Position numbers and translations under genes: made by a program. A stretch of DNA of 64,000 bases from Octopus vulgaris (taxonomy: Eukaryota). Below, in pieces: positions 4,662-37,485 of this stretch. The notes under the pieces were generated by a model. The model did no database searches and had not been told where the DNA came from. It saw only the letters and a list, made by a program, of their open reading frames with translations. How positions within the stretch are numbered: position 1 is the first letter of the stretch; each line of letters begins with the position of its first letter. The stretch covers positions 77,500,001 to 77,564,000 of the forward strand of contig OX597826.1 in NCBI GenBank assembly GCA_951406725.2, in the 5' to 3' direction.

Positions 4662-4704
<43 letters not shown>

Positions 4705-4898
4705 ACGGACTTTGTCAGTGAACAGGTCGCGGATTTTAGCGACGAAAATATTTTGACAAATTAAACTTAAATGTTGGAGTGAATCGAACGGCTTTTGTGT
4801 GTTTCTTAAATGGCTTATAAACACCTCCCACGCTGCAATTGTTTTCGTTTCAGCACACGATCTCAGATCAAATTACTTGCTATGCGAGTACATCTCCG

Positions 4899-4929
<31 letters not shown>

Positions 4930-4934
<5 letters not shown>

Positions 4935-5153
4935 TTAAAGCAGCAGAAAATTCAACAAAACTTGTTACTCTGAGTTTCCCGTTGCCGTTCATCGGACAGT
5001 TTTTGCTAGAATGTCCGATGAACGGCAACTGAAAACTCAGAGTAACAGGTTTTGTTGAATTTTCTGCTGCTTTAAATAAAGCATATTACTCTACCACTGG
5101 TATTTGAGTACTCTTTTTTCCACCTTGTTTCACATTTATGTGTTTACTCCGGT
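4930..5153 (+). mobile_element. Penelope-like terminal repeat with a 5' inversion and a hammerhead-like motif, inserted in (TA)n
   Basis: 4931-5000 is the reverse complement of 5012-5080. Core reads tgtc-CGATGA-acggcaac..GAAA-ctcagag-TA-acag. Flanked by (TA)n. Confidence 0.55.
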
Positions 5154-6463
5154 ATATACATACATATATATATATATATATGTTGTTATGAACACATACA
5201 CATGTGCTTAAGTACATGCAAACATTGAGACACATACAAAATACATGTCATACACACATGCATACAAATTAAAAAATAACAAACAAACAAACCAACACCG
5301 AAATATATGGAATAATGGTATTTTGGGATATTTTTTTCTTCAAGGGAAGAAATCTTTCGATGAAACTGTAATCGTTATAACATTATCATCAACATCATTA
5401 TTATAATTATTATTATCATAATTATTATTATTATTATAATTATTATTCATTTTTATCATATTTTTTTCGTATAACATTTGTTTCTTTGTAGTTTTTCTTG
5501 TTTCATTTTGTTAGGTTTTTTTTTTCTTTTCTTTTTTTTGTGTTTGTTTTCTTAAACAGTAAAGAAATGGTCAGTGTTTAAATGGCAACACCACATTGGT
5601 CTTGGGTCTGGTCACTAGGTCCTTGCAGACCACACACACACACACACACACGCACATACATACACACACATGTAACACACCAAAATATACACACATAACA
5701 TACTGGTTGTGGCCCTGTGACAAGTGTATGTGCGTGTGTAAGGGAGGGGCACAGATTTTTAGATCGAAGGGTCCAAAATGTAAGACCAAGAAAGAGATAA
5801 GGAGAGAGAGAGAGATAAAGAGAGGGGGATGGTTAGAGAAGAGAGATTTGTAGGGGTGCGGTGGTGGTGGTGATAGAGGCAGAAAGCCGAAATAGTCCCT
5901 AAAATCTTTCAGTTCAACCCCTCCTGCCCCTACACCTTGACTGAGGTCTGACAAGATGTTACTGTTGTTTCTTATTTGGGGGTGTCTGAAAGGGGCAGGG
6001 AGTTGTGGAGGTGGAAGATAAGGGTGGAGGATGGCAGGTGCATATTTGGGGTGGGATGGAGGGGTGGATAATTATTTTCTCTCTGGTTGGGGGGGGGGGC
6101 GATGAGGAGGAAGTGGGCCAGTGGAAAGGAATAAATGGGATTTCAAATAGAGGGGAGAAGATGATGGTCAAGGAAGGGCCATTAGGGACTCAGAGACTTT
6201 TCATTAGAGCTGGGGGTGGGTGGGGAGTAAGATGTAAGGGGGTATATAAAACTCAAAGATGAATGTTTGTGTGTGCGTATGTGTGTGTGAGTGTGGTTTG
6301 GTGTGGGTGGTTGTGTGGTGTGTAGCATGGCAGAGCCATAGCGCCAGGAATGAAGGAATTAGAAAAAAAAATTTTTTCAAGAGTGGGATAGAGAGAGAGG
6401 GAGAGAGGGAGAGACAGAGAGGGATAGAGAGACAGAGAGAGAGAGAGAAAAGCTGAAAGAGTT

Positions 6464-8389: not shown

Positions 8390-9881
8390 GGGTCTGTTAG
8401 AACAAAAATACCATAAAACAGCAATTCAGGAACTCATACAAATTTCCCTATAATAATATTCTGATTGTCACATTATGTGTTCAAGTGTTATACCATAAAC
8501 AACCTTAACTATAGAACTAAAGACAAAAATCTTTAACCCTTTCTTTACTGTATTTATTTTGAGATGCTCTGTTTTTTCTTTCAATTATTTTAAATATAAC
8601 AAAGAATTTAGTAAAATAACTTAGTTATCATTCAGCTAGTGTTAGGAACGTAAATTGTGACTAAGGTTTGGTGGAAGATTTTAATTCAAAACTTATGAAA
8701 ACAAGACATTTGTACTCAGAGCCAGAGGCAGTTTCAGCCAGGTTGGTAATGAAAGGGTTAATAGAACAATGTTGAGAAGCACAGGCAAGAAATTGGCTCC
8801 ACAACCACATGGTTCCATGAAATACAAACTTAAATACAAGAATTCAATACATAACAGTGGTGCCATTCCAAATTTGTGGTCTGTTGCATCTATTTTAGAA
8901 ATCAATATTCATATTAATTAACAAGCAATAACTAATTAATCACATATATTTGTAATTCATATACTTCAAATGCAAGACAATTAAGCAAGATTTTTCTCTT
9001 GTTTTATGTAAAGAGGACCGGAATCTGTGGATTCTTTCAATTGTTGAAAGATTAAAGTGTGTGTGTGTGTGTGTGTGTGAGGCCCCACTGCTAGACAACT
9101 GGTGTTGCCTTGTTTACATCCTGTAATTTTGCAGTTTGAGTGAAAGAGACTGATGAAATAAGCACCTGGCTTAAAAATGAATACAGGAGCCAATCTTGAT
9201 TGACTAAACTCTTCAAGGCATTGCCCCAGCATGGCCAGAGTCCAGCACTTGAAATACAGGTAAGTAGTATTCAATGTACAGTTTTCAGAGGCAACAATCT
9301 GCAATCAGCAAGCCCTTTTTATACATTTGCCACCTTTTCCACCTTTTATCTATTAGTTTTCACTTTACATAAAAAAGTGCATAATCTTAAAGAAAGGAGA
9401 CATAACCAATCTATAATATTTTATTGCAACTGAACGACAAAAGGGAAGATTTAACATATTCATTTGTATCAGAGAAAACTTCCCTTGGCCCCACTTCCAC
9501 CTCCTTCTCATTCCATTAAGGCAGGGGGGTTCCAACCTTTTCACTATTAAGGACTCCTTTTATTTAAATGAATTTTCCCATGGTCCCCAGGATATTGAGA
9601 AGTCTGTCAGCTTAACATGCTCACAGACCCCCACCAGTACTACCATTGCAGACTGCCATGGGTCTGCAGGCCACAGGTCGGGAACCACCACATTAAGATA
9701 TGCTAAAGCTGTCAGTCAATCAATGAATAAAATATTAAGAGTTGTTATTTACATTTGACAGATATTTGTCCTCGTCTTGTTTGTTGTTAACACAGCGTTT
9801 CGGCTGATATACTCCCCAGCCTTCATCAGGTGTCTTGGGGAAATTTCAAACCTGGGTTCTCATTCCTAAGGTATTTTTCAA

Positions 9882-9918
<37 letters not shown>

Positions 9919-11754
9919 ATCACTGCCTGGAATCGAACTCGGAATCTTGGGGTTACTGGCCCACGCTCTTAACCATTATGTCATATGTCCTCTTAACCAC
10001 TATGCCTTATGGCGTAGTGGTTAAGAGGGCGGGCTACTAACCCCAAGATTCCGAGTTCGATTCCAGGCAGTGACCTGAATAATAATAATAATATCGAAAA
10101 ATACCTTAGGAATGAGAACCCAAGTTCGAAATTTCCCCAAGACTCCTGATGAAGGCTGGAGGGTATATCAACTGAAACGTTGTGTTAACAACAAACAAGA
10201 TGAGGACAAATATCCATCAAATGTAAATAATGTAAATAATTCCGCATCTCTTAAATATAGAACTGTATTATTAAGAGTTGTCTCCCCTAGTATAGATTTC
10301 AGATTTTATTCCATTCCAGTCTTTTAATGTTCCAAGTTCTGCCGTGGACTTTCAACAATCTGGACTAGTACCAGTTATGGTTTTAGCCCCAGGTTAACCT
10401 TTATCCAGCAGCTGGGCAATGGGGTCAATGTCAGTAACTTTAACTCCCCTATAAAATTCCTGGAAACTATGCCAAAATTTTAAACCATTATTATTATTAT
10501 CATTATGAAGGCAGCAAGCTGGCAGAATCGTTAGCATGACGAATGAAATGCTTAGAGGTATTTTGCCCATCGTTATGTTCTGAGTTCAAATTCCTCCCAT
10601 GTCGACTTTGCCTTTCATCTTTTCAGGGTCAATAAAATAAGTACCAGTTATGCACTGGGGTCAATGTAATCGATTTACTCTCCCACCACCCGCAAATTTC
10701 AAGTCTTATATGCCTATAATAGAAATTATTATTATTATTATTATGAAGGCACTCCAGGTATTTCATCCGTCTTCATGCTGTGAGTTCAAATTCTGCTGTG
10801 GTTGACTTTGATTTAAATCCTTTCAGATTAAAATAAGTACCAGTTATACACTCAGGTCAATGCAATTGACTTACATTACCTCCAAACACGCACACAAATT
10901 TCAGGCCTTGGGTCTTCAGTAGAAAAGATTATTATTATTATTATTATTATTATTACTACTACGGTGGCAAGATGGCAAAACTGTTAACACCAGAAACAAA
11001 ACGCTTAGTGGCATTCTGGGATCAAATTCTGCCAAGGACAACTTCGCCTGTCATCATTTCAGGGGTGATAAATAAGTACCAGTTATGCACTGAGGAGCAG
11101 TGTAATCGTCGAAGCCCCTCCCCCAAAATTGCTGGCCCTGGGTCAAAAATTTCAAATCATCATCATCAACATCATCGTTTCTGTTGCTATTGCAAGTGAA
11201 AGACATTCCAGTCGTGACTACCCCACCTTATTTTCAAACTCAGCATAACTAAGCTTGTGTCACAATACCAAAGAATTTTAGTGTTTTTCTTTTTTAACTT
11301 AGTAGGCTGTGATGTGAGGGAGACTTGGCTGTTATCTTTGGCATGCCAAGTGCCCTCATTTGTTCAGTACCCTACTATTATTCTAAGCGCAATCATCTTA
11401 TCCCCTGTATACGTTCCTTTTTGGTTTTTTACATCAATGTTTGTTCATGTAAACATGGATGAAGGAATGGTTTATTTCTTGCAGCATTTATTCCTGCAAC
11501 TGGATGCTGCATGGCTGTCCAACTATTAATAATTCGAAGATTACCATTTTTAAATCTCACAACGAGAGATATTCAACAACACCATTCTTTGGAGTAAAGC
11601 TTGTTTGCCAACATAACATGGCAGTCCTGGTTTAGGACGAACGTTGCCGTAATTTAGCCCCAGGAGACATCGTCACCTCTAGCCGAACAATTATTCTGTG
11701 CTGATGAAGAGAAATAACCCAGAAATCGTGATACACAGATATTGTTTTGAGCAA

Positions 11755-11792
<38 letters not shown>

Positions 11793-14552
11793 TCGAAAGA
11801 TACCTTAGGAATGAAAGCTCTGGTTTAGGACTAATGTTGCCGTAATTTAGCCCCAGGAGACATCGTCTCCAGCTAGCTATACAACACGATCTGTGTCCTT
11901 ATATTTTCAAACAAGGGAATCTAGCACCCCTACTCAGCCATCTGTGTGTAGCCCCTTGTGGGTAGTAAAGAAATATGTATTTCGTCTGTCTTTACGTTCT
12001 GGGTTCAAATTCTGCTGAGGTCGACTTTGCCTTTCATCCTTGCGGGGGTCGATAAATTAAGTACCAGTTACGCACTGGGGGTCGATTTAATCAACTGGCC
12101 TCCTCCCCCTAGAGTAGTAAACGTTATCTGTTTATCGTGATTTCCAGGTTATTTCCCTACATCAGCACGTTGTGAGATTTAAAAATAGTAATTTTCTAAT
12201 TCATAGATCAGTGACTAGTTGTCACTTTGGAAACTATATATTTCGAACGGGAATTTGGCAGCGCCACCTCTAGCCGAACAATTATTCTTTGCTGATGAAG
12301 GGAAATGACTCGGAAATCGCGATACACAGATATTGTTTTGAGCTGAGTGGGGGTGCTAGATTCCCTTGTTCAAAAATATAAGGACACAGATCGTGTCGTA
12401 TAGCCAGCTGGAGACGATGTCTCCTGGGGCTAAATTACAGCAACATTAGTCCTAAACCAGGACTGCCATGTTATGTTGGCAAACAATCTTTACTATTAAT
12501 AATTCACCTTAACCAAAGTTAAGTTACTTGCTCAAGAAGGATCACAAAATAGTTGTGAAGTAAAATCTTGAAATTTCCCACAAAAAAGGGGCAGAGACTG
12601 TGGTTGTGCAGTTAAGAAGTTCACATTGTAAGTATGTGGTTTCAGGTTCAGTCTCACTCTGCAGCACCTGCCAATACACCTCGTGAGTGAGTTTGGTAGA
12701 TGGAAACTGTTAGGAAGCCCATCATACACACACACATTTCATATACATATATATATGGGGGAAGGTTCTCTGTACCCCTCACCATCACTTGACAACTAGT
12801 GTTGGTTTGTTTACATCCCCATAAGTGGATGACCAAAAGAGACCAACAGAATAAGTCTTACAAAAATAAGTCCTGGGATCAATTTGTGGAGCTCCAGTAT
12901 GGCCACAGTCTAATGACTGAAATAAAAGATACAGATATGGTCAATAGCAGATCCCTGCAAACCTCAAGAGCCCCTGAGCCTCACATCTATTAACTAATGT
13001 TTACTCTGTATAAGACAGAAAACTGGCAGAAGCGTTAACACGCCGGACAAAATGCTTAGTGGTACTTTGTCTGTCTTTACATTTTGAGTTCAAATTCCAC
13101 CGAGGTCGACTTTGCCTTTCATCCTTTCAGGGTCGATTAAATAAGTACCAATTACGCACTGGGGTCGATATAATCGACTTAATCCGTTTGCCTGTCCTTG
13201 TTTGTCCCCTCTGTGTTTAGACCCTTGAGGGCAATAAAGAAATAGGTATTTCGTCTGTCTTTGCCTTTCATCCTTTGGGGGTCGATAAATTAAGCACCAC
13301 TTGTGTACTGAAGTCAATCTAATCGATTGGCCCCTCCCCTAAAATTTCAGGCCTTGTGCCTAGAGTAGAAAAGAATATTTACTGTGTCTATTGACCTGTA
13401 TTTAATAATATTAAGTGTTTACTCACCTACAAATCCAGTTACTGATTCACCATTTCTCCACACTACATGGAATCCAAATGTTGAGTTTGGTTCATGGAAA
13501 TTACCGATGCCATGGACGAGAGAGTGAGTATTTCCTGCAGCTCCTGGACTTTGTTCCACAGCAGTTCGGTACTCACCTAAAATAAATAAATATATCATTC
13601 TGTTTATCTTAAAATCATGGATATACAATAGAAAGCCACAAAACTGTGATATTCATCTCGAGAAAGCATCTCATTTAGATGGAGAGAGTTAAAGAATAAC
13701 AAAAGCAACAGTGAAAAGAATCCCAGGGTGGGAATTGTTAAATCTAAATTTCTGCATCTTTGAGTGCTATTAATGCATTCGTGCTGAAATTTTTCTATTG
13801 AATGAAATTGCCTGAAAATTCACAGATACCATTATTTTGACTTGAATAACAACTGAAAAAAATTTAATTGAAATCCGTTTGATACAGACTGCGTACGTGT
13901 TAAGAACAGGTTTCATTCTTTGATACAGATCATACACAAATCACAATTTGCATCAAGTATTTGTTTTACACCCTTATAAATTAAGGGTCAGTTTAAGCAG
14001 ACGATCGGCTTGAATGCGTTAATAGCAAATATCCACCAACAAATGCATGCCTTTGTCAAATTTAACCCAAACTGATATGGGCAAACAGTAATTGAGAAAT
14101 TACTCGTGTAGAAGATAACTGGTGAGCTGGATACAAATTTGAATTATCGTCATCATCATTGTTTAATGTCGATTTTCCATGCTGGCATGGGTTGGATGGC
14201 TTGACAGGAGCTGGCAAGTTGGAAGACTGCGAAGCTCTGCTGTCTGCTTGCCGTCCTTTCTACGGCTGGATGCCCCTTCGAATACCAACCACTTTACAGA
14301 GTGTGGACTGGGTGCTTTTTATGTGACACCAACAGCAGTATCACACACAAGAAAGCAGTGCAAAAAAAGTGGAAAAAAGAACAGTTGAGGCGCAGGAGTG
14401 GCTGTGTGTGGTAAGTAGCTTGCTAACCAACTACATGGTTCCGGGTTCAGTCCCACTGCGTGGCATCTTGGGCAAGTGTCTTCTACTATAACCTCGGGCC
14501 GACCAAAGCCTTGTGAGTGGATTTGGTAGACGGAAACTGAATGAAGCCCGTC

Positions 14553-14589
<37 letters not shown>

Positions 14590-17500
14590 TGTGTGTGTTT
14601 GTGTGTCTGTGTTTGTCCCCCTAGCATTGCTTGACAACTGATGCTGGTGTGTTTATGTCCCTGAAGTGACAGTTTTGTTCAACATTTTTGTCAGACAGTT
14701 CTGTCTGACAATATATTCACGCATAATACACATTAACACTACAGAAGGCACATAGGTGCAATCACACTAGAAAATATACGTTTGTTTAAAATAGGTGGGG
14801 ATGATTTGAAAGAGATTTAGCTAACGGTACAGGGGAGACAACTTTCTTATATAAATAAGAGTTATCTCCCTTGAAGTCTTTAAACGTTATGGACAGTTAA
14901 AAGGAGGTTTTAGACATTTCGCAGAAGCAAAAAGCGTTTACGGCAAACGGTTTGTGCATACCTGTCTGTGACCAACTTAAACATGAGGGCATAGTAAACT
15001 TATTCCATCGTCCCGTTTATCACAAGCACCTTCTCCTAAGCTGTCTTCAGTACCGCGGTTGCTATATTTAGATAGTATTTCTGGGACGCAAAATATTTTT
15101 TCCCCACGGGAGTTCCTGACCCCGGTTATGAACTCATTTGCATACAGCAAATCTGGGCTCAGCTATCAAACTAATTTATGAGCGCCCAACAAGTGATGGG
15201 AGATAAGGTAAGGTCACTTGGGTAAGGAATGACCATGCTTCTTTTCTCTTTTAAGAATGCTTGTTTTCTCTTTTAAGAATGCTTAAAAATAATAATAATG
15301 AAATTATTGTATACAGTGCTCAGGTGCACCACAACTTGTCAGAAAGTGCATATAAAGTACATGCAGTAATGTAGAAATGTCTGGAAAGCGAACAATGTAT
15401 GAGTCAGATACATGCTTGTGTGTGTATGGAGGGGAGAAAATCAAGTATAGTGTTGGCGAATCTCAGGAAGCATGGAAGTTTTGAAGGATGCAGTGCTCCG
15501 ACAACTAACAACTGATGCTGGCAGTTTGTTCCATGCTTCAGCAACTCTCAGCGTGAAAAAATGTTTCCTGAAGTCATGGGAGCTGTGCTGTTTTCTTACT
15601 TTGTAAATATGTCCACTGGTGTTAGATGGGTGGAGTTTGAAAAGGTGCTCAGTGTTATTGTTTGTGCGATGGTTGATAATTTTAAGGGTGTCTGCCAGGT
15701 CAGCTGCCAGACGTCGGAGTTTCAATCTATCCATGTTGTTCTTGTTCATGTTTTAACCATGGCTGCCTCTGAGTAGTTATTTGTGTTGTTGTTTACTTTG
15801 TAAGACAGCAAAGGGAGAGGGTTGCTAGCATATCACTCTCTACCCACATCTTTACCACATGGGGCCCTAACAAAATCCGATAATAGGTATGGATGAAAAT
15901 CTATCTAATTATTTGTCTCCTAACTTGGCCATCGGTCAACTTACAACTGTTCTTCGTCTTCAGTTTACTTGGTAGAGTGTGTCTGTTAAGTTGATAAGGT
16001 CATAGTGAGCTCTGATTGGCTGTATGCAAATGAGTTTATTACTGGGGTCCGGAACTTTCGTGGGAAAAAAAAAATTCGCTTCTGGGGACAGAGGATAGCT
16101 TCCACTTTTCTCTCTCTCCAAACAGATCTCAGGTTACTGAAACTTCAGAGATGCTATTAAAACAGGGACAAAAAAAAAGGGAGGTGGTATGCTGCTACAT
16201 TGTAGATCTGCCCAACCCACACGTTTATCCCCACCATAACCAAATATTAAGAATTAAGCCAAATATAGAAGAATAAATAAAACCAAAAATGAAATCAGCA
16301 ACTACGTTCAGAAAGCAAATACCCCCAGAAAGCAAATATAGAAAACCATGCATTGAAGACACCCAGCAGAGATTAGGAAGGGCTGGGTACCTCAACCACT
16401 TAGCCATGCACCTTCACCAAAAAAGTCACATCATGTTTTAATGCACAAAATCTCTGTTCCTGAATATGTGCAGCTGAAATTGGAATGCACTGAATATGCC
16501 AGGTGTTTGTTATGTCATCAAATATGGGACATTTATTTAAAAAAAACAAAAAAAAAACATTTGCATACAAATCCATTAAAAAATAATAAAAATAGGGGAA
16601 GAAAATGGAAACAATCATCATTATCATTATCACCACCACCACCACCACCACCATCATCAGTGGTGTCGGGCGTCAACGAAGAGCCCTCGACTGCAACAAG
16701 ATGACCAAAGTTTTTTTTGTTTTTTTTTTTCCTAAGGTCTGGGATCTCCTGCCCCTAAGCCCTAGACCATCACCTAATCACCCTTACTCGTCTTGTTGCT
16801 TAACAACAACAACCATCAGTAGCAGCAGTCACAGCGTTACGGAAACGAGGAAGAGACGTATGGGGAAGGAATTTGAAAGAAGAGCAATTTCAAATCGTTA
16901 AATTATTTACGAGGATAGAGAGAAGAAAAGAACAGAAAAGAGAAGAGTATGAAGCTGTTACCTTTGATTATACCGGCATTGTCTTGTTTGAGTATAACCT
17001 CTGAACCAAGCTCATTGTACCATGTTCCCTCTAGTTTACACGGCGGTGTGGCTGATTCTGAAAAGCAAGAACACATGAGTTGATAAGAATTTCTTAAACG
17101 GTAGGCTTTGATAATGCCACAGAGAAGTCTAGTCAAGGTTTTCTTCAATTCCAATATTTGTGGGGTGGCAATGGAACTACTGGAGAACGCTTTCATTCTC
17201 AACAACCTTTTGAGTATGAATGGGGTTTCTTCTTAAAACCAAAGATGAATGGTAAGAGCAGTTGTAGGAAATTGTACCGTAAACATTTTTGCCATAGGAA
17301 AATTCACCATAAAAAAATATATTCACTACCAAAAAGTATATTCACTGTCAAAAAATATATTTTCCGTTAAAAAATATATTCTCTGTCAAAAAATGTATTC
17401 TCTGTCAAAAAATATATTTACCATCAAAAAATATATTCTCCATCAAAAAATATATTCACTACAAAAAAATATATTTACCATCAAAAAATATATTCACCGT

Positions 17501-20500
17501 CAAAAAATATATTCTGTCAAAAAATATATTCACTGTCAAAAAATATATTGTCAAAAAATATATTCACCGTCAAAAAATATATTTATCATCAAAAAATATA
17601 TTCACTACAAAAAAATATATTTACCGTCAAAAAATATATTCTCCGTCAAAAAATATATTTACTGTCCAAAAAAGAAAAAAAAAGATTAGCCATTTTCTTA
17701 AAATGGTAACTTCAACTAATCTTCTAATTAGAGAAAGATAATTTTTTTTTTAAGTGAATCATTGAAGTTTGCAGTCAGCGACATTTGCTACAGCAAATTT
17801 TCCCACATGAAAAATGTTTACGATGAATTTTCTGGACATGAGTGAGAGCATAAGAACATGTGAAGACTTGTCTATATGCAGAAAAAGAATGAGATTTTGA
17901 AGTGATTTGAAACTGTGAAACAAGTTTACTTCGTGCCATTAAGCGCAGCGAGGTGGAAGTAAGGTGTTGTTGAACCCCATGTCTGCCATGACCAAGCAGG
18001 CTTGCAATCAAAAGCATTCCATTCATGACCATCCCATCTTTTTGCTTAGAGGTAATGCAGTACCATGGACTAAATTATCCAATATATTATTCTTAAGACA
18101 ACTGAAAGTGATTTAAAGGCTACGATTGGTGTGCAGAGCTAACAGAGAAGTGATGAGCAAAGGCTAAGGGGCAATAAATGAAGCTGAGTTAGTTATAGGG
18201 ACAACATTTCTATCCAGTTCCTATCGACACTATGTGCCACTCTGACACCCACATCTGCCAACCACACTGAGCAGGGCCACTTACTCATTGCTGCCGCTGG
18301 ACGGTGTTGTGGGTGGCGTTCTTTGCCAGCACTGGACAACCTGTTAGGTTTACGTTTGGCGAAATTCCTATAGAATCCATGTGAGTCATACTTCTTCCAT
18401 CGGGTGTCAGTGCTCTCCCGCAGCAGTGGTTCCCATGATTCTGCAACAAGAACCAGGTTATTCTGCATAGAGAAACTGACATCACAGAAATATCGGATTT
18501 TTTTTTTAAAAAAAAACAATTCAAATAAACTCTTTTATTTTTTTTTTTCAGAATTTCAGATCAGAGTTGGGGGTTTAAATATTAAAAATAAAAATAAAAG
18601 AAACAATTATATACAACAGGCTTCTTTCAGTTTCCATCAACCAAATCCACTCACAAGGTTTTGGTCGGCCTGAGGCTATTGAAGGGGACATCTGACCAAG
18701 GTGTTGTGCAATGACACTGAACCCAAGACCCCATGGTTGTGAAGCAAGATTCTCAACCACACAAACTGTGCCTATATTTTCCCAGTTAAAAGTTGATTGA
18801 TAAAGATTTCAAAGAGGTCAGTGTTACCAATGAGTTTGAGATGGTGTGTGTGTGTGTGTGCGTGTGTGTGTGTTAGATAGATAGATAGACAGAGAGACAG
18901 ATAGATGGATAGATAGACAGACAGACAGACAGACAGATAGATAGATATGTTTCTTTATTGGCCACATAGGGCTGAACACAGAGGGGACGAAATACAAAGT
19001 AGAGCTTTTCTTTTTGGGAAGAAGAGGAAAAAAATAAAAGTGGATCGAATTTCGATCAAAAGATAGATAGATTGATAGACGATAGTTAGATAGATAGATA
19101 GACGATAGATAGATAGACAGACGGATGGCTGGATAGATAGATACTACCTCAAAAGCACCCAGTACACTCTGTAAAGTGGCTGGGATTAGAAAGAGCATCC
19201 AGCAGTAGAAGCCATACCAAAGCAGACAATGGAACTTGGTACATTACTATGACTGACCAGTTCCTGTCAAACCAGCTGACCCAAGCGGTTTTATACGAGT
19301 ACCAGTGTGTGCATAGGTGTGTGTGTGTGTGTGTTTGTATATACACAGTCAAAAGTGATTAAGTTTACTACGAACGCAACTCTGTAAGCTGTTGCTGGTG
19401 CCACACACATCCAAAACTCCAACATTATATTATTGCAAAGATACAAATATGGAAAGCCCAGATCGAAAGGAATTGCTCAACCATGCAGCCACATTGAAAA
19501 ACAAAAAAACAAAAATAAAATGAGGATTATCTTTTAATCTTTAACTTGCTCCAGTCTTTAGACTGCGTCCATGCTGGAGCACAGCCTTAAAGAAATTTTA
19601 GTTGAATGAATGAACCCAATTGCTTACTTTTAAATCTGTTGCTTATTTTATCAGTTTCCTTTAGCCAAATTGTTAAGGCATGGAGATGTAAACACACCAA
19701 TGCCAGTTGTCAAGCAGTGGGGTGGAGGGCAAACAGACAGCCAGACAGACACCCCTTCCCACATATGGACAACGGGCTTCTTTCAGTTTCCTTGTGTCAA
19801 ACCCACTCACAAGAATTTGGTTGGATCAAGGCTACAGTAGAAGACACTTGCCCAAGATGCCATGCAGTGGGACTGAACCCAGAACCATGTGGTTGGGGAG
19901 CAAGCTTCTTATCACACAGCCATGCTTGCACCTATTGTGGCAAGGAAACTGAAATGATGTCCTGAAATCAATGCATTTCCTAATAATAATAAAAATAATA
20001 TTTGCCGGGTCAGAGTGCTTGTATTTTAATATAGCATTGAGTAGTTTGAGGGTGACTTTGATATTATTTCTAGCTTCCTCTGAAGGACTGACTTGGTAGG
20101 TTCCATAATGAAGATGGTGCTGTTCTAGAAGAGACTTACCTGGTAAATTTGACAGTTTCACTAATGGTTTCATAGATTTGTCACTTGAAGAAGAATAATT
20201 CTACAAGAAAATAAAATACACTTTAGTATATGTGTGTATATTTGTGATTATATATGTGTGTGTATATGTTGGAGGGGAGTAGTCATATGTGTACACAATA
20301 AATTTACACACAAATTACATTTGGAATGAGTAAAATATCTTTTAGTGCTAATGGCAATTATTGTCAAGAGGAGCAAGGGAGACAACCCAAAAATGTTAAT
20401 TCAAAAAAACCAATATGCAGTAAAAGAGTAAATTGAATTTTTGTCAGTCATTTTACTTAATTGTTAAATGAGTGAAAGATTGTCTCTCAAAAGACTAAAG

Positions 20501-30728: not shown

Positions 30729-32388
30729 GCATATTTCTCATTATGTGTATGGGGAGAGGGAAACAGTTGAAGTCAATTGTGTAAATAAATTGTAATGTCC
30801 CACTCTCTCACACTCTCTCTGTATATATATTCCTGCAGGCATGTACACAGGCATGCATGCATGTGAGTGTGTGTGTGTATGTGTGTGTATATGTTTACCT
30901 CCAGTGCCAAAAAAATTCTGTTGCCAAAATAGATCCAAAGTCCAGTCAACCATACTAAATTGTCAGAATCCAAACAACCACGCCACTTGTCTCATTCCAA
31001 TAACTTCTTTCCAAGTTCTTGCTGTTAATGTGATTCACATCGGATTCAAAATGACTCAAAATGCCTCCCTTCTTTTTTGTTACCTACCAATGACTATTCA
31101 AAAGGATTACAGTACAGTTCTATATTTAAGAGATGAGGAATTATGTACATTATTTATATTCGCCGGATATTTGTCCTCATCTTGTTTGTTGTTAACACAG
31201 TGTTTCAGCTGATATACCCTCCAGCCTTCATCAGGTGTCTTGAGGAAATTTCGAACATGGGTTCTCATTCCTAAGGTATTTTTTTGATATTATTATTATT
31301 ATTATTCAGGTCATTGCTTGGAATCAAACTCGAAATCTTGGGGTTAGTAGCCTGTGCTTGTAGTTGTTAAGAGTACAGGCTACTAACCCCAAGATTCCAA
31401 GTTCGATTCCAGGCAGAGACTTGAATAATAATAATAATAATGATAATAATAATAATAATAATAATAACATCAAAAAATAACTTAGGAATGAGAATCCAGG
31501 TTTGTAATTTCCCCAAGACACCTGATGAAGGCTGGAGGGTATATCAGCCGAAACATTGTGTTAACAAGAAAGAAGATGGGGACAAATATCAGTCAATTGT
31601 AAATAATGTAGGATTACAGTAGTTTCAGATTAAGAAAAACAGCTGAAAAAAATAAGGGGTTTTTCACTTCAAACATTTTAGTTAAACCAGTAACATCTTA
31701 ATAATAAGAAAAAAAGTCATCATACTCTGTTCCCAACCTGCGGTCTGTGGACCCCTGGTGGTCCCCTAAGGTAGTACAGGGGATCCATAGACTAAATTCA
31801 AAATTTCCTATGTAAGCAGTTTGCTTACCAACCACATGGTTCTGGGTTCAGTCCCACAACAAAACATGTTCTGATGCAACGCTTGTGCCTAAATTCCAAA
31901 CCCTATATGTGTATTGAAGGAGGGCAAGAACCAGTGGTCTATCCATTTCCATAGATCTGTTGCTATATGTATAGATATTCTTTCTACTCTAGGTTTGGAA
32001 TTTTGCAAGAAGGGGTTAGCTAATTACATCAAACCCAGAGCCCCATGATAAACAAAGTTATCCTGGTGGAATTTGAACTCAAAACATTGAAGAAGGAATC
32101 TCTCATAAGAGTGTCAGGTAGATCTCACCTTCAGAATCTCCTGTCTTTTACACTTCAATTAGTCCATTGTCAGGAATCATTATTATCATACAAAATATTG
32201 TCTGAATTTTATTCATTAAAGAATGACTTGTTAATCAGTTAATTAGTGAACTGTTAAAAAAACATATTACACACGTCTGTTTAGAGGTATTGTCATCAAG
32301 ACATTGAGGTGTTTTAGTACAATGATAAACGAGTTTCCGTTTACCTATACAGGTGTATCAACCTAGACACATTCATATGCTGGGTGTC

Positions 32389-32419
<31 letters not shown>

Positions 32420-35160
32420 ATAACAGGTACAGTCTCTTCAATAAGGTTAAAACTGTAACAAAGAAACTAGACCATCTTCAACAGATTCACCTTTTTAATT
32501 ATTTCTTATTGAATGTGATGGAATTCCAAGCAATAAACTACGAACGTATTCTTTATTCTTGCTTCTTCTTGTGACAGTGAAAACTTTTATTTATTTATTT
32601 TTCATAACTTTTTTTTTATTAAACCATTCTCTTCAATAATTTAATGGAACGAAACTGCCATATTCATCTGTAAAAAAAAAACCCCGCAAAACAAAATAAA
32701 CAATGAAAACCACTTCTACTCACAGTAATACAATTTGGCAGAACATTTTGGATTTTTGCACTATTTCTTTTTTTTTTTCTTTTTCTAAAGCAATTCAATT
32801 CACCAAAGTTGTCTAATTCAAGGGAACAAAACCAACATATTCTAGGAATTGTTTAAGTATTTTCTATTCCTCCTACCAATTTAAAGAACAACATTCAATA
32901 ACATGTTGTTGTTTTTTTATTTTTGGTTTTTGCAATTAACTCCACTTTAATACAATTGGAAGAACAGGCCCCATTATATTCATCAACAATTGTTTTAAAA
33001 TTCCTTCCACTCTCTCGCAAAACTGCTGCAAATAAACCAGCAGAATCATCAAATTTTTCTTCTTTTTTACAAAGAAATATACCAGCATAATGAGGAGAAT
33101 GATTAAATCCCTGTTAATTATATTTACGAATCATTTAAAATTAAAACCATTTTTTGCACCTTAATGGGAGAGTTCACCGAAATGAAATGGCAATAAGTTC
33201 AAATTCCATAAAGTACACTTCACTATTCACCGTTGCAAGGTCTTTAAAATAAATACCAATGACTACAGATGCCAGCATGCTAATGCTAAAAACAACAACA
33301 GAGTGGAGGTGCAATGGCCCAGTGGTTAGGGCAGTGGACTCGTAGTCGTAAAAACATGGTTTCGATTCCCAGACTGGGCATTGTGAGTGTTTATTGAGCA
33401 AAAACACCTAAGCTCCATGAGGCTCCAGCAGGGGTGGTCGTGATCCCTGCTGTACTCTTTCACCACAACTTTTCTCTCACTCTTTATTCCTACATCTGTC
33501 ACAAAGTACCACCACCATGGTGTAACCCACTATGGTGTGGTAAACTTTCATACCCTAGTCTAGATTGCGAATCCTCTGTACCCCACGATGGTTCATCTCT
33601 CCACCCGTTAAAAGCCACCGCTTACGGAATGATGATAACAACGTAGCTTTCGCACCCGTGCAACCGCCAGTCTATCGCGTGAGGTGGGTGGATCTTCAAG
33701 TTGCCCACATGCATTCTTAGTAGCTTAGAGTAGGCTCGAATTAGAGATCATTCTTTGTGGCTAATGGCATGAGTCCTGATTTTTTTGGTGAAGAAGAAGA
33801 AGACAACAACAACGGAGGAGTGAACCAAAGCAAACATTGAGGGGTTGATGGTTGTGGAGAGGGGTTGATGGTCGTGGAGAGGGGTTGAAGGCCTGACTGA
33901 TAAGTCGGTGGCTTGGTTGAGGGGTTGCTTTGTGTGAATGGGTAAGTAAATAGAAACTAATCAACAAATACCTGATAACACCTTGGGATCTTGATGTCTG
34001 TACCTCTAAACACACAGATTTTATCTTTCCCTTGTTTCAGACATTAGACTGTGGCCATACTGGAGCACGGCATCGAATCTTTTAGTCAAATGAGTTGACC
34101 CCAAGTACCTAAACCTGGTACTTATTGTATTGGTCTCTTTTTGCTGAAATGCTAAGTTATAGGGATGTAAACACACCAACACTGGTTGCCATGCAATGGC
34201 GGAGGACAAACACAGACACAAAGGTACGCACACACACACACACACAGATATGTAAATACATATAGAATGGGCTTCTTTCAGCTTCTGTCAACCAAATCCA
34301 TTCACAAGGCTTTGGTTGACCCGAGGCTATATCAGAAGACACTAGACCAAGGCGCCACACAGTGGAACTGAACCCAGAACCTTGTGGTTGGGAAGCAAGC
34401 TTCTTACCACATAGCCACACCTTCATCTATGTCCATCATGTTTTTAACAGCTCTCTAATTAACAGATAAATATGTTATTCTTAAAACCAGACATTTCATA
34501 ATTGGAATTGACAGTTTGGTTGCAGGTTCCTTGACAAGTCGATTCTTTGTTTTACAAGTTTGATGGTTTGGTTGAGGATTTGGCTTGACAGGTTAATGAT
34601 TTCATTAAGGACCTAGATATCTTGGTTGAGGGGTTTAATTGGAAGATTACTTGATTGGTTGTGGAGTCGATGATTTCGTGGCCGAGTTGATGGTTTGATA
34701 GCTGGATGATAGATTAGTTGATGGGTTGATCATTTCAAAGAAATCCTAATGATTTGGCTGCAGACTTGATGGCTAAGGTTGAAGTTTGGTGGTTCAGTTG
34801 AAAGGTTGATGGTTTGGTCGAGAGGCTGGTGGTTTTTGTAGATGGTTTAAAGGATTGGTCGATGGTGTGTGTCGGATAATGGTTGGCATTCATGTAGGTT
34901 GGCAATGTCTGCCAATAGCATCTCTCTCTTTTACTCTTTTACTTGTTTCAGTCATTTGACTGTGGCCATGCTGAAGCACCACCTTTAGTCGAGCAAATCG
35001 ACCCCAGGACTTATTCTTTGTAAGCCTAGTACTTATTCTATCAGTTCTCTTTTGCTGAACTGCTAAGTTACAGGGACGTAAACACACCATCATCGGTTGT
35101 CAAGTGATGTTGGGGGGACAAACAGACACACAAACATATACACACACGTACATAAGAGCC

Positions 35161-35203
<43 letters not shown>

Positions 35204-37485
35204 CCTGTGTTTGTCCCCCCAACATCGCTTGACATCTGATGCTGGTGTGTTTACGTCCCTGTAACTTAGCGGTTCAGCAAAAGAGAACTGATAGAATAAG
35301 TACTAGGCTTACAAAGAATAAGTACTGGGGTCGATTTGCTTGACTAAAGGCGGTGCTCCAGGATGGCTGCAGTAAAATGACTGAAACAAGTAAAACAGTA
35401 AAAGAATACATGTATGTATGTGTATGTATACTCACACCATCATTACCATCCACATCAATCAATCTTTATGCCACATGGCGCCTCTTCCACTCCTAGTACC
35501 AATGTTACTACCAGTGCCACTATCCCCACCTCACATGCCATCCATGGCCACCACCACCATACATCCACCACATCTCTGTAGCTAACAACGCTTTTCTTTT
35601 GATCTCTGCAGTGATTATGGTGATTATGGTGCCGAAATGCACTTTAAAATTTTAATAACAATATCCAGAGCTTTGATCATAATATGAGGATAACTCTTAA
35701 TTCATTTTAAATAAAGAGATTGGGACCAGCAATTTTGATAACAATAACAGGTTAATGAAATTATAAGCAGCTTCTAGTTCACACATACACAGATTCATGG
35801 GATGTTTGCAAGTGTAATTCTCATTTAATTATCAAAAATACAAAATGAATATCAGAAGAAAATATGAAAACTTGGTTAAAATTGGGATCCAGAAAAATTT
35901 TGCCACAAGGTAAAATAAATATTTGAGATACTTTGCCCAAAACACAAAGAGTAGAAGCTACTTGCAGGACTTTTTGTAAATTCTTTTAAATCCTATTTCT
36001 TTACTACCCACAAGGGGTTAAACACAGAGAGGATGAACAAGGTGAGACAAATGGATTAAATTGATTATATCGACCCCAGTGCATAACGGTTCTGCCAGCT
36101 CGCCGCCTTCTTTTAAATCCATTGCAATGTTGATAAGCAGGGATCTCAGGGTCACAAGCATTTCGCCCCTTACCCTGTACACTTTGTGTGGTGTTAGTGG
36201 TGTTATGGGCTGTGATGGAGCTATGTGGTGTTGGTGGAGGGGACTGCAGATGAGGTGGACGGAAGTAAGGACTGCAGGGGCCTGTGACACAGGCACAGAG
36301 CATGCGTGGTCAAGAAGCACGTGTGGTCAGTTCGAGCAGAGATGGCAGCGAGACAAGACGTGTTTAATTCGTGAGAGTGACCGCTGATTCTACCGAGGTC
36401 AACAGGTAAGGCCTTTCGTATTTCTTTCTCTCGTTTGCATCTTTTTCTGAATTAGTCTTTCCCTGCGGAAGAGTTCCATTTATGGTCTCTGGTCAACCAC
36501 AGCCAACTTGACCTGACTTCAGCTACTATTCTTATCTCCTTGTGGGCTATCTTCAGTTGTTTGGCTTCCAGACCAATCTTCTGCAGGAATAGCATGACAA
36601 TTTCATAAAACTAAAATAAATCTTTATATTCTAGAGCAAGGCACTAGAGATTGGTACTAGGGTAAAATAGAATGGAAATAAACTATGATTAAAGTGTGTC
36701 TAATGAGTAAATATAATTAATTAAGAGCTGTAGAAATATTGTTGTTAACAAGAGAGGTAAGCAAGGGAGATAATACACCTTATTACATGGATTTAACAGT
36801 TTAATTTCCGATGTTAAATTTTAAGTTTTGAAGTGAAATATTAAAGCAAATATTTTCAGTTTTTGTTGCTAGAATGTTTTTTTTTTAGCTGTTCTTCATT
36901 CATTTAATCAAAGTTATAGCTTTTAATAACTATTAGATCTTTCCAGATATGACTGTCTTGCTGATTGCATCATTATGACAACTCATTCAAAGATGAGAAA
37001 ATTAACTCAAACACAAATTTCACTATAAAATAAAATGACAGAAAAAGTTAATTTTTTCATTTCATTTCCTCCCAAAAATAAATGTGGAATTTTGTTAATA
37101 TTCGATAGTGGTTGTTCTCCATGAACACATATTTCATAAGTGTTCTGGTGAGCATGTTAACAGACTAACAAAACCAATTCCTCTATAAATGACCCTTTAA
37201 CCTTTTAGCATTTGAATCAGTAATATGAGGCCCAAATATTCTAAGGGCTTCAATTCCCAGACTAGCAACACATTTTGTTCTTGATCAAAACACTTCATTT
37301 CATGTTGCCCCAGTCCACTCAGCTGTCAATGTCTAACCCTGTGATGGAACAGCTTTCCAATCAGGGGAAATGTTGGCCTGCTCACCTAGTCAGTAGGATG
37401 GCATCGTTCAAAAGCTAAAATGATGCAAAACGCATTGTGACCAGCAATGTATAACAACATCTGATAGTCAGGTTAATCATGTGAG

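What the first reader, a model, noticed from the sequence alone, without database searches (positions are those of the whole stretch)
9733..10281. Palindromic, TSD-flanked retroelement combining a tRNA-like Pol III head with a hammerhead ribozyme
Seen: two independent insertions (9746-10268 and 31115-31609) with 13- and 12-bp TSDs. Each is a head-to-head inverted pair of [A/B-box tRNA-like head, (AAT)n, CTGATGA..GAAAC hammerhead, tail], with one arm about 30 nt longer (ending cttaaatatagaactgta). Established: Penelope-like elements carry minimal hammerheads and often insert with inverted terminal copies, and Schistosoma SM-alpha is a Pol III repeat with a hammerhead. Inference: a Penelope-mobilised, ribozyme-processed SINE or retrozyme that inserts as a fold-back, possibly undescribed in this lineage.
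Basis: partly seen in the sequence, partly recalled or inferred. Interest (0 to 1): 0.72.

Follow-up and report, generated by a model that had tools for sequence, protein, structure and literature searches.

The report
Penelope end repeats with tRNA promoter
The two hairpin-shaped repeats are back-to-back, cut-short end pieces of a common Penelope-type jumping gene found at nearly full length elsewhere in this genome; unusually, its end repeat opens with a tRNA-like segment where most copies begin, so the element is likely read by RNA polymerase III, and its self-cutting RNA motif is predicted, not shown, to cut.

Summary
Head, (AAT)n, hammerhead and tail form the pseudo-LTR (pLTR) of an autonomous Penelope/Poseidon-type element (RT plus GIY-YIG-type endonuclease) in the same genome; the ~29-nt 'tail' is the start of its ORF. 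Fold-backs are its usual insertion form: 55 of 86 sampled loci, 52 of 55 with exactly one tailed arm, 37 of 55 with a 7-18-bp TSD (control 1 of 55). This architecture is published.

Two points I did not find in print. (1) The pLTR starts with a tRNA-like A/B box, and 87 of 149 head-bearing arms begin within -16..+5 of it (6.5 expected), suggesting Pol III launches the template RNA. (2) About 12% of arms carry a 2-5-nt deletion at the hammerhead's predicted cut, independently in the two arms of one insertion: a possible scar of in-vivo cleavage.

Against: short copies have no private variants; missing T-runs are not significant; a second PLE family shows no scar; no RNA evidence was available. 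None of the four window hammerheads is intact. The scan reached the same main reading on another piece of this genome (e1-8669850).

The parts
9733..9745 (.). Element 1 left TSD (13 bp)
   Evidence: exact match to 10269-10281
9746..9990 (-). Element 1 short (tail-less) arm: inverted, 5'-truncated pLTR copy starting at position 0 of the tRNA-like head
9789..9834 (-). Minimal hammerhead, helices I and II intact, U16.1 changed to C (predicted inactive)
9991..10006 (-). Extra 16-nt inverted fragment of the head (+8..+23) at the junction; likely a further template switch
   Evidence: sequence
10008..10077 (+). tRNA-like head of the long arm (starts at +5); A-box-like 10010-10020, B-box-like 10053-10064
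   Evidence: z up to 6.8 against host tRNAs; no single parent; not called by ARAGORN or Rfam
10078..10092 (+). (AAT)n spacer, length highly variable between copies
10112..10268 (+). First ~52 codons of the PLE ORF (ATG at 10112), overlapping hammerhead and tail
   Evidence: frame continues into the N-terminal ORF in locus L161
10141..10186 (+). Minimal type-I hammerhead; core intact, helices I and II mutated; predicted cut between 10181 and 10182
10240..10268 (+). PLE 'tail' (29 nt), the stretch between the two inferred reverse-transcription start sites
   Evidence: PMC11167929
10269..10281 (.). Element 1 right TSD
11756..11826 (+). Third, partial copy of the family: (AAT)n and the 5' part of the body, no hammerhead
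31103..31114 (.). Element 2 left TSD (12 bp)
31115..31357 (-). Element 2 long (tailed) arm, 5' end at about +24 of the head; hammerhead 31194-31239 with damaged helix III core
31360..31609 (+). Element 2 short arm, 5' end at about +11 of the head; hammerhead 31517-31562 with G16.2 changed to A
31610..31621 (.). Element 2 right TSD

Best explanation
Both elements are head-to-head pairs of 5'-truncated end repeats (pLTRs) of an autonomous Penelope/Poseidon-type retrotransposon of this genome, likely made by two reverse transcriptions primed on opposite target strands from an RNA that is likely started by RNA polymerase III at the tRNA-like head. Shown: identity with the PLE's pLTR, tail as ORF start, one-sided tail, TSDs, and the pile-up of 5' ends at the head. 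Inferred steps: (1) Pol III starts about 7-13 nt before the A box, so most templates begin there (odds about 0.55). (2) The PLE protein nicks both strands about 12-13 bp apart and primes one cDNA about 125 nt and one about 155 nt into the ORF, as shown in vitro for Poseidon_Ac (odds 0.65). (3) The two cDNAs join at their 3' ends by microhomology, often at the small palindrome at -7..+4. (4) The hammerhead is predicted to fold only as a dimer or with protein help; when it has cut, RT would jump the nick over a 2-3-nt microhomology and leave a short deletion (odds 0.45). The window copies are decayed relics.
For: PLE linkage: 23 of 29 loci found with the endonuclease region continue into the segment behind its stop codon, 20 of them on into the head; tail continues into the ORF in L160, L161, L169, L155; near-full-length copies L223/L257 and L253. 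RT: Pfam RVT_1, E 5.5e-10; C-terminus 39% identical to P0093, which carries GIY-YIG PF01541. Architecture: 55 of 86 loci fold back, TSD in 37 of 55, control 1 of 55; one tailed arm in 52 of 55, two in none. 5' ends: 87 of 149 in -16..+5 against 6.5 expected, and 62 of 111 (4.9 expected) when the junction partner is not an inverted head; exact 33-mer counts fall from 2168 (head) to 447 (just upstream). Two RT events from one master: subfamily marker 73A is shared by both arms in 8 of 60 pairs (2.2 expected if independent), whereas the cut-site deletion is independent (73/21/2 pairs with 0/1/2 deleted arms; 1.6 doubles expected). Deletion hotspot: 13 of the first 100 genome-order matches; 43 deletions of 2-6 nt in the cut-site bin against at most 10 in any other 11-nt bin.
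Against: No transcript start was observed. Published pLTRs without tRNA heads also have defined 5' ends with palindromes, so the pile-up need not mean Pol III. The sense strand has no run of 4 or more T, but that is not significant against dinucleotide shuffles (1.8 expected, P=0.14; P=0.018 against mononucleotide shuffles). ARAGORN and Rfam do not call the head a tRNA. A young second PLE family shows 0 deletions in 100 matches at its own cut site (that site has no microhomology). The cut site lies in GT-rich sequence next to a CpG, so slippage is possible. HHR cleavage was dispensable for Poseidon_Ac insertion in vitro. No unbroken ORF of this family was seen.
Confidence: 0.6

Rival explanations
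1. Same PLE end repeats, but the tRNA-like segment is a passive relic of an old tRNA or SINE insertion; the 5' boundary comes from an ordinary Pol II pLTR promoter or from self-priming at the -7..+4 palindrome.
For: Defined pLTR 5' ends with palindromes and Pol II-like motifs occur in rotifer PLEs (PMC3846280, passages). The commonest end is -7, the palindrome's edge (21 of 149). T-run absence is not significant. Pol III processivity is argued to limit such elements to about 1 kb (PMC10886601, passages).
Against: The boundary coincides with the expected Pol III start before canonically spaced A and B boxes whose majority state matches the textbook consensus (consensus recalled). RT stalls at a structure would fall at its 3' side, not its 5' edge. 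The pile-up persists without an inverted-head partner (62 of 111).
Confidence: 0.3
2. A separate non-autonomous SINE or retrozyme lineage (tRNA head plus PLE 3' end) that copies itself with the PLE's enzyme.
For: Short head-start copies outnumber ORF-linked ones roughly tenfold. A tailed short copy holds everything a template needs. A head-less tandem array exists (L011).
Against: The head is part of the autonomous element itself. Head-start arms (144) and ORF-linked arms (53) carry the same subfamily markers at like frequencies, with no private variant among 61 tests (best P 0.015). 30 of 30 head matches are followed by an (AAT/AAC)n run and none by a foreign body. 5' ends do not map to the ribozyme cut.
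Confidence: 0.08
3. A MITE-like DNA transposon whose long inverted arms are terminal inverted repeats.
For: Long inverted repeats flanked by TSDs.
Against: TSD length varies from 7 to 18 bp, arm ends are asymmetric by the tail, arm lengths vary, and the sequence is the end of an RT-encoding element.
Confidence: 0.01

Closest known systems
Poseidon_Ac (PAc) of Anolis carolinensis, Penelope/Poseidon clade (Frangieh et al. 2024, PMC11167929; parts 1-2 of 4 read)
   Same: Hammerhead overlapping the ORF start; two RT start sites inside the ORF with the tail between them; AT-rich targets; both strands cut and extended in vitro.
   Different: No tRNA-like head is described in the parts read. Here the cut lies 70 nt after the ATG (26 in PAc). 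They found no RNA-seq reads ending at the cut; here a deletion hotspot sits on it.
EN+ PLE insertions with inverted 5'-truncated pLTR and one-sided 30-40-bp tail (Arkhipova et al. 2013, PMC3846280; Craig et al. 2021, 10.1101/2021.04.23.441226; passages read)
   Same: Head-to-head inverted pLTR, optional tail on one end, pLTR including the first codons, variable TSD, palindrome at the pLTR 5' end.
   Different: Their pLTRs are described with TATA/Inr-like motifs, and the 2013 paper explains the inversion by self-priming on an antisense template; arm-independent deletions here fit two separate RT events better, if the deletions arise during RT.
Minimal hammerheads of metazoan PLEs (Cervera and De la Pena 2014, PMC4209133; parts 1-2 of 4 read)
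   Same: Short helix I, extra nucleotide between 9 and 10.1, G10.1-C11.1 pair, palindromic 15.2-16.2; opposite-strand pairs 100-700 bp apart were already noted there.
   Different: Helix II is 5 bp here (7-8 bp in Schistosoma); cleavage triplet is GUU; activity untested here.
TRIMp3 elements Cassandra, Helenus, Ajax (Kojima 2024, PMC10886601; passages read)
   Same: Small-RNA-derived Pol III promoter built into the terminal repeat of a retroelement.
   Different: Those are non-autonomous LTR elements; here the repeat belongs to a protein-coding PLE.
Animal non-LTR retrozymes (Li et al. 2026, 10.64898/2026.07.22.740005; part 1 of 5 and passages read) and Schistosoma SM-alpha (recalled, not read)
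   Same: Short hammerhead-bearing repeats related to pLTRs; one tandem array (L011) resembles them.
   Different: Retrozymes are defined by head-to-tail tandems; the window elements are inverted, so one transcript holds only one sense hammerhead.

Membership tests
EN+ Penelope-like element (Penelope/Poseidon type) | [quoted passage not shown] | tested here: met
   RVT_1 hits; DKG, CxC and two His visible in translations; 39% to P0093, which carries PF01541. Pfam GIY-YIG itself did not hit this family. The ORF is pieced together from broken copies.
EN+ Penelope-like element (Penelope/Poseidon type) | pLTR that includes the ORF start and a hammerhead | tested here: met
EN+ Penelope-like element (Penelope/Poseidon type) | Inverted 5'-truncated copy, ~30-40-bp tail at one end, variable TSD | tested here: met
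   55 of 86; 52 of 55; TSD 7-18 bp
EN+ Penelope-like element (Penelope/Poseidon type) | Clade placement by RT phylogeny | not tested
   No tree built; placement rests on domain order, motifs and ~40% identity to animal PLE-like proteins
Minimal type-I hammerhead ribozyme | Conserved core, helices I and II, palindromic helix III | tested here: met
   Majority state over 100 arms not chosen on this stretch; 41 of 358 arms match it exactly; 0 of 4 window arms intact
Minimal type-I hammerhead ribozyme | Self-cleavage | not testable with these tools
   Only the indirect deletion hotspot; core no better conserved than flanks among dead copies (0.942 vs 0.946), as expected for neutral decay
tRNA-derived SINE | tRNA-related head with A and B boxes at the 5' end | tested here: met
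   parent tRNA unresolved (35 distinct host tRNA sequences compared)
tRNA-derived SINE | Independent non-autonomous lineage distinct from the autonomous partner | tested here: not met
   Head is part of the autonomous element; no private variants
tRNA-derived SINE | Transcription by RNA polymerase III | tested here: inconclusive
   5'-end pile-up for; T-run test not significant; no transcript data
Non-LTR retrozyme | Head-to-tail tandem units, each with a hammerhead | tested here: not met
   Window elements are inverted pairs; one long tandem among 29 distinct top loci
Non-LTR retrozyme | Circular RNA formed by ribozyme cleavage | not testable with these tools
   needs circRNA or RNase R data
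MITE | Symmetric TIRs and fixed-length TSD | tested here: not met

The most novel reading that the evidence does not exclude
A protein-coding Penelope element has taken a tRNA promoter into its end repeat and is launched by RNA polymerase III, making it its own SINE; and its tens of thousands of fold-back copies record the insertion mechanism, with twin reverse transcriptions and a scar where RT jumped the ribozyme's cut, the first genomic trace of PLE hammerhead cleavage in vivo.
Probability: 0.33. Interest if true: 0.72.

Novelty: new variant of a known kind. Interest (0 to 1): 0.5.

Why it matters
How PLEs form their inverted repeats, which promoter makes their template and whether their hammerheads ever cut in vivo are open questions. 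This family supplies roughly 30,000 arms with a sharp 5' boundary at a tRNA-like promoter, and a deletion hotspot on the scissile bond, which turns each question into a simple assay. A Pol III promoter inside the repeat of an autonomous retroelement would blur the SINE/partner distinction; the nearest precedents I found are non-autonomous. For annotation, such copies will be mislabelled as SINEs or MITEs. Read-through of a fold-back would form a ~250-bp RNA duplex (83-85% paired), a possible editing or siRNA substrate (inference).

Tried and rejected
Rfam at gathering thresholds: 0 matches in the window; at E<=10 on 5 loci no tRNA or hammerhead family. ARAGORN: 0 genes in 16 loci. Parent tRNA: Arg, Cys and Thr scored alike; unresolved. 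Pol III terminator avoidance: 0 T4 runs in 2316 nt, significant only against mononucleotide shuffles; not used as support. Ribozyme-defined 5' ends: 1 of 74 arms at the cut; rejected. Cut-site deletion as a subfamily trait: no linked variant survives multiple testing, arms discordant; rejected. Generality of the scar in a second PLE family: 0 of 100. Energy of the named dimer fold could not be evaluated; the free cofold gave another pairing. Expression: no RNA holder listed; contigs of 4 runs coded as organisms B, C, D and E hold the body and head, and some contigs bridge head and endonuclease end, but contigs show no starts. Literature searches that found no PLE with a tRNA-type promoter. Repbase, Dfam and SINEBase could not be searched; Ohshima and Okada 1994 (three octopus tRNA-derived repeats) was seen only as a reference line, so the short form may already carry a SINE name there. 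bioRxiv supplements were closed and the TE library of PMC13282606 is not in its one held supplement.

Full report
1. Observation. Both elements are as described: exact 13- and 12-bp TSDs, head-to-head arms, one arm about 29 nt longer. The window lies in a 2.8-Gb genome; I infer an octopus from size and repeat content, which no call states. A 33-nt hammerhead stretch has 2166 exact matches and a 33-nt stretch behind it 6054 (reversed controls 0). Calibrated on ORF-anchored copies (4 of 54 and 10 of 57 exact) this gives roughly 30,000 arms, a coarse figure. Mean divergence from the majority state is 6.2% (5-95%: 3.4-8.9%), so the family looks inactive.

2. The parent. Locus L024 showed an endonuclease-like ORF end directly before the head. 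A search with that stretch gave 29 further loci; in 23 the segment after the stop codon follows, in 20 of these the head as well, and in most the hammerhead body. Walking upstream gave an RT (Pfam RVT_1) with the DKG motif and an N-terminal region. The C-terminal part aligns at 39% to P0093, which carries GIY-YIG; Pfam GIY-YIG did not hit this family directly. In L160, L161, L169 and L155 the tail continues without a break into the ORF; L223/L257 and L253 hold nearly the whole unit. The unit is about 2.6 kb with an ORF of roughly 830 codons (my sum of pieces; every copy seen is broken). The ATG lies 70 nt before the predicted cut; short arms end about 123-129 and long arms about 154-157 nt after it. 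This mirrors Poseidon_Ac, where RT starts at two sites inside the ORF and the tail is the stretch between them (PMC11167929, parts 1-2 of 4).

3. Architecture. I sampled the loci of the hammerhead pattern in genome order on contig C1 (L062-L151, leaving out the three non-sample loci L092-L094 and the duplicate L077). 55 of 86 have an inverted arm within 1.9 kb; 37 of 55 have a TSD of 7-18 bp (16 of 37 are 12-13 bp), against 1 of 55 when the right boundary is moved 300 nt. 52 of 55 have exactly one tailed arm, 3 none, 0 two. Arms range from tens of bases to over 1 kb and can include endonuclease or RT sequence. An inverted 5'-truncated copy with a one-sided tail is the described PLE form (Craig et al. 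2021, passages; Arkhipova et al. 2013, passages).

4. The tRNA-like head. It aligns to host tRNAs at z up to 6.8 without a clear parent and is not called by ARAGORN or Rfam. A- and B-box-like motifs are canonically spaced (consensus recalled). 30 of 30 head matches run into an (AAT/AAC)n stretch and 26 into the body within 700 nt; none into a foreign body. 5' ends are not random: of 149 distinct head-bearing arms pooled from three position-ordered samples, 87 end in -16..+5, against 6.5 expected from the truncation rate further upstream; 62 of 111 do so when the partner is not an inverted head. Genome-wide, the head 33-mer has 2168 matches and the 33-mer just upstream 447, although the latter is less mutable. 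A Pol III start 12-20 nt before the A box (recalled rule) would fall there. Against: other pLTRs have defined, palindromic 5' ends without a tRNA; the top single end, -7, is the edge of a small palindrome that alignment cannot tell from a self-made hairpin; and the lack of T4 runs is not significant under dinucleotide shuffling. Short copies share the markers of ORF-linked copies (73A: 23 of 141 against 7 of 49) with no private variant, so they come from the same masters and do not form a SINE lineage.

5. The hammerhead. The majority state over 100 arms not selected on this stretch is a complete minimal type-I hammerhead: 5-bp helix I, extra A before a 5-bp helix II, palindromic ACGU, GUU triplet, matching Cervera and De la Pena 2014 (parts 1-2 of 4). 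10 of 100 arms keep core and both helices; 0 of 4 window arms do. Inverted arms cannot supply a cis dimer. Only 1 of 74 arms starts at the cut. However, 44 of 358 distinct arms carry a deletion of up to 6 nt over the cut, 30 of them of 3 nt (the set leaves out the tRNA loci and the tandem array, and includes similarity-selected arms); 13 of the first 100 matches of a gapped pattern are 2, 3 or 5 nt short. Seven other 3-nt microhomology sites in the body show 0-5 deletions each. The deletion is unlinked to subfamily markers, occurs in all length classes and is independent between the arms of one insertion (73/21/2), whereas marker 73A is shared (45/7/8). Each size fits an RT jump across a nick using GU or GUU microhomology. 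Slippage in GT-rich DNA is the rival, and a young second PLE family has 0 of 100.

6. Mechanism. Shown: sections 2-3 and the two statistical patterns. Inferred: Pol III-started RNA; two nicks about 12-13 bp apart; two cDNAs from the two RT start sites, from templates of one master; joining by microhomology; occasional jump over a ribozyme cut. If the deletions arise during RT, their independence argues against copying the second arm from the first cDNA.

7. Novelty. Fold-back, tail, TSD and hammerhead are known PLE traits. Nine literature searches showed no PLE with a tRNA-type promoter and no cut-site scar. The nearest analogues are non-autonomous TRIMp3 elements (PMC10886601, passages). Passages of PMC13282606 (plus its one supplement), PMC8967140, PMC5786205, PMC6685494 and PMC4824008 do not describe the family; the 2026 retrozyme preprint has no mention of tRNA or Pol III. 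Repeat databases and the 1994 octopus SINE paper were out of reach, so the short form may already be named. Verdict: new variant of a known kind; interest 0.5.

Noticed in passing
window 34927-35405: A second inverted pair (228-nt arms, 89% complementary) of an unrelated SINE-like family around a (TA)n centre, with repeat tails pointing outward; no TSD seen by eye.
   Followed up: no
L011/L012 (G000:C2:2734199-2735868 and flanks): Head-to-tail array of nine ~220-bp head-less units ((AAT)n, body, tail), several sharing the cut-site deletion; retrozyme-like, and the one place where a cis hammerhead dimer could form.
   Followed up: partly
L250-L252 (e.g. G000:C2:59921500-59929500): A young, unrelated PLE family with near-identical 1008-codon open frames, a hammerhead upstream of the ORF (630 pattern matches) and many T-runs; probably recently active.
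   Followed up: partly
L002 901-1120: A fold-back copy sits just behind what reads like a protein-kinase exon with a GT donor (recalled likeness, not tested); intronic fold-backs would give long double-stranded RNA.
   Followed up: no
L029, L020, L288 and others: The (AAT)n spacer varies from about 4 to over 100 units and sometimes holds other inserted repeats.
   Followed up: no
window 17242-17710: 19-bp minisatellite, about 17 copies listed.
   Followed up: no
L031 minus strand 4691-5953: 421-codon open frame whose start resembles an innexin (recalled, not tested) near the L024 PLE copy.
   Followed up: no
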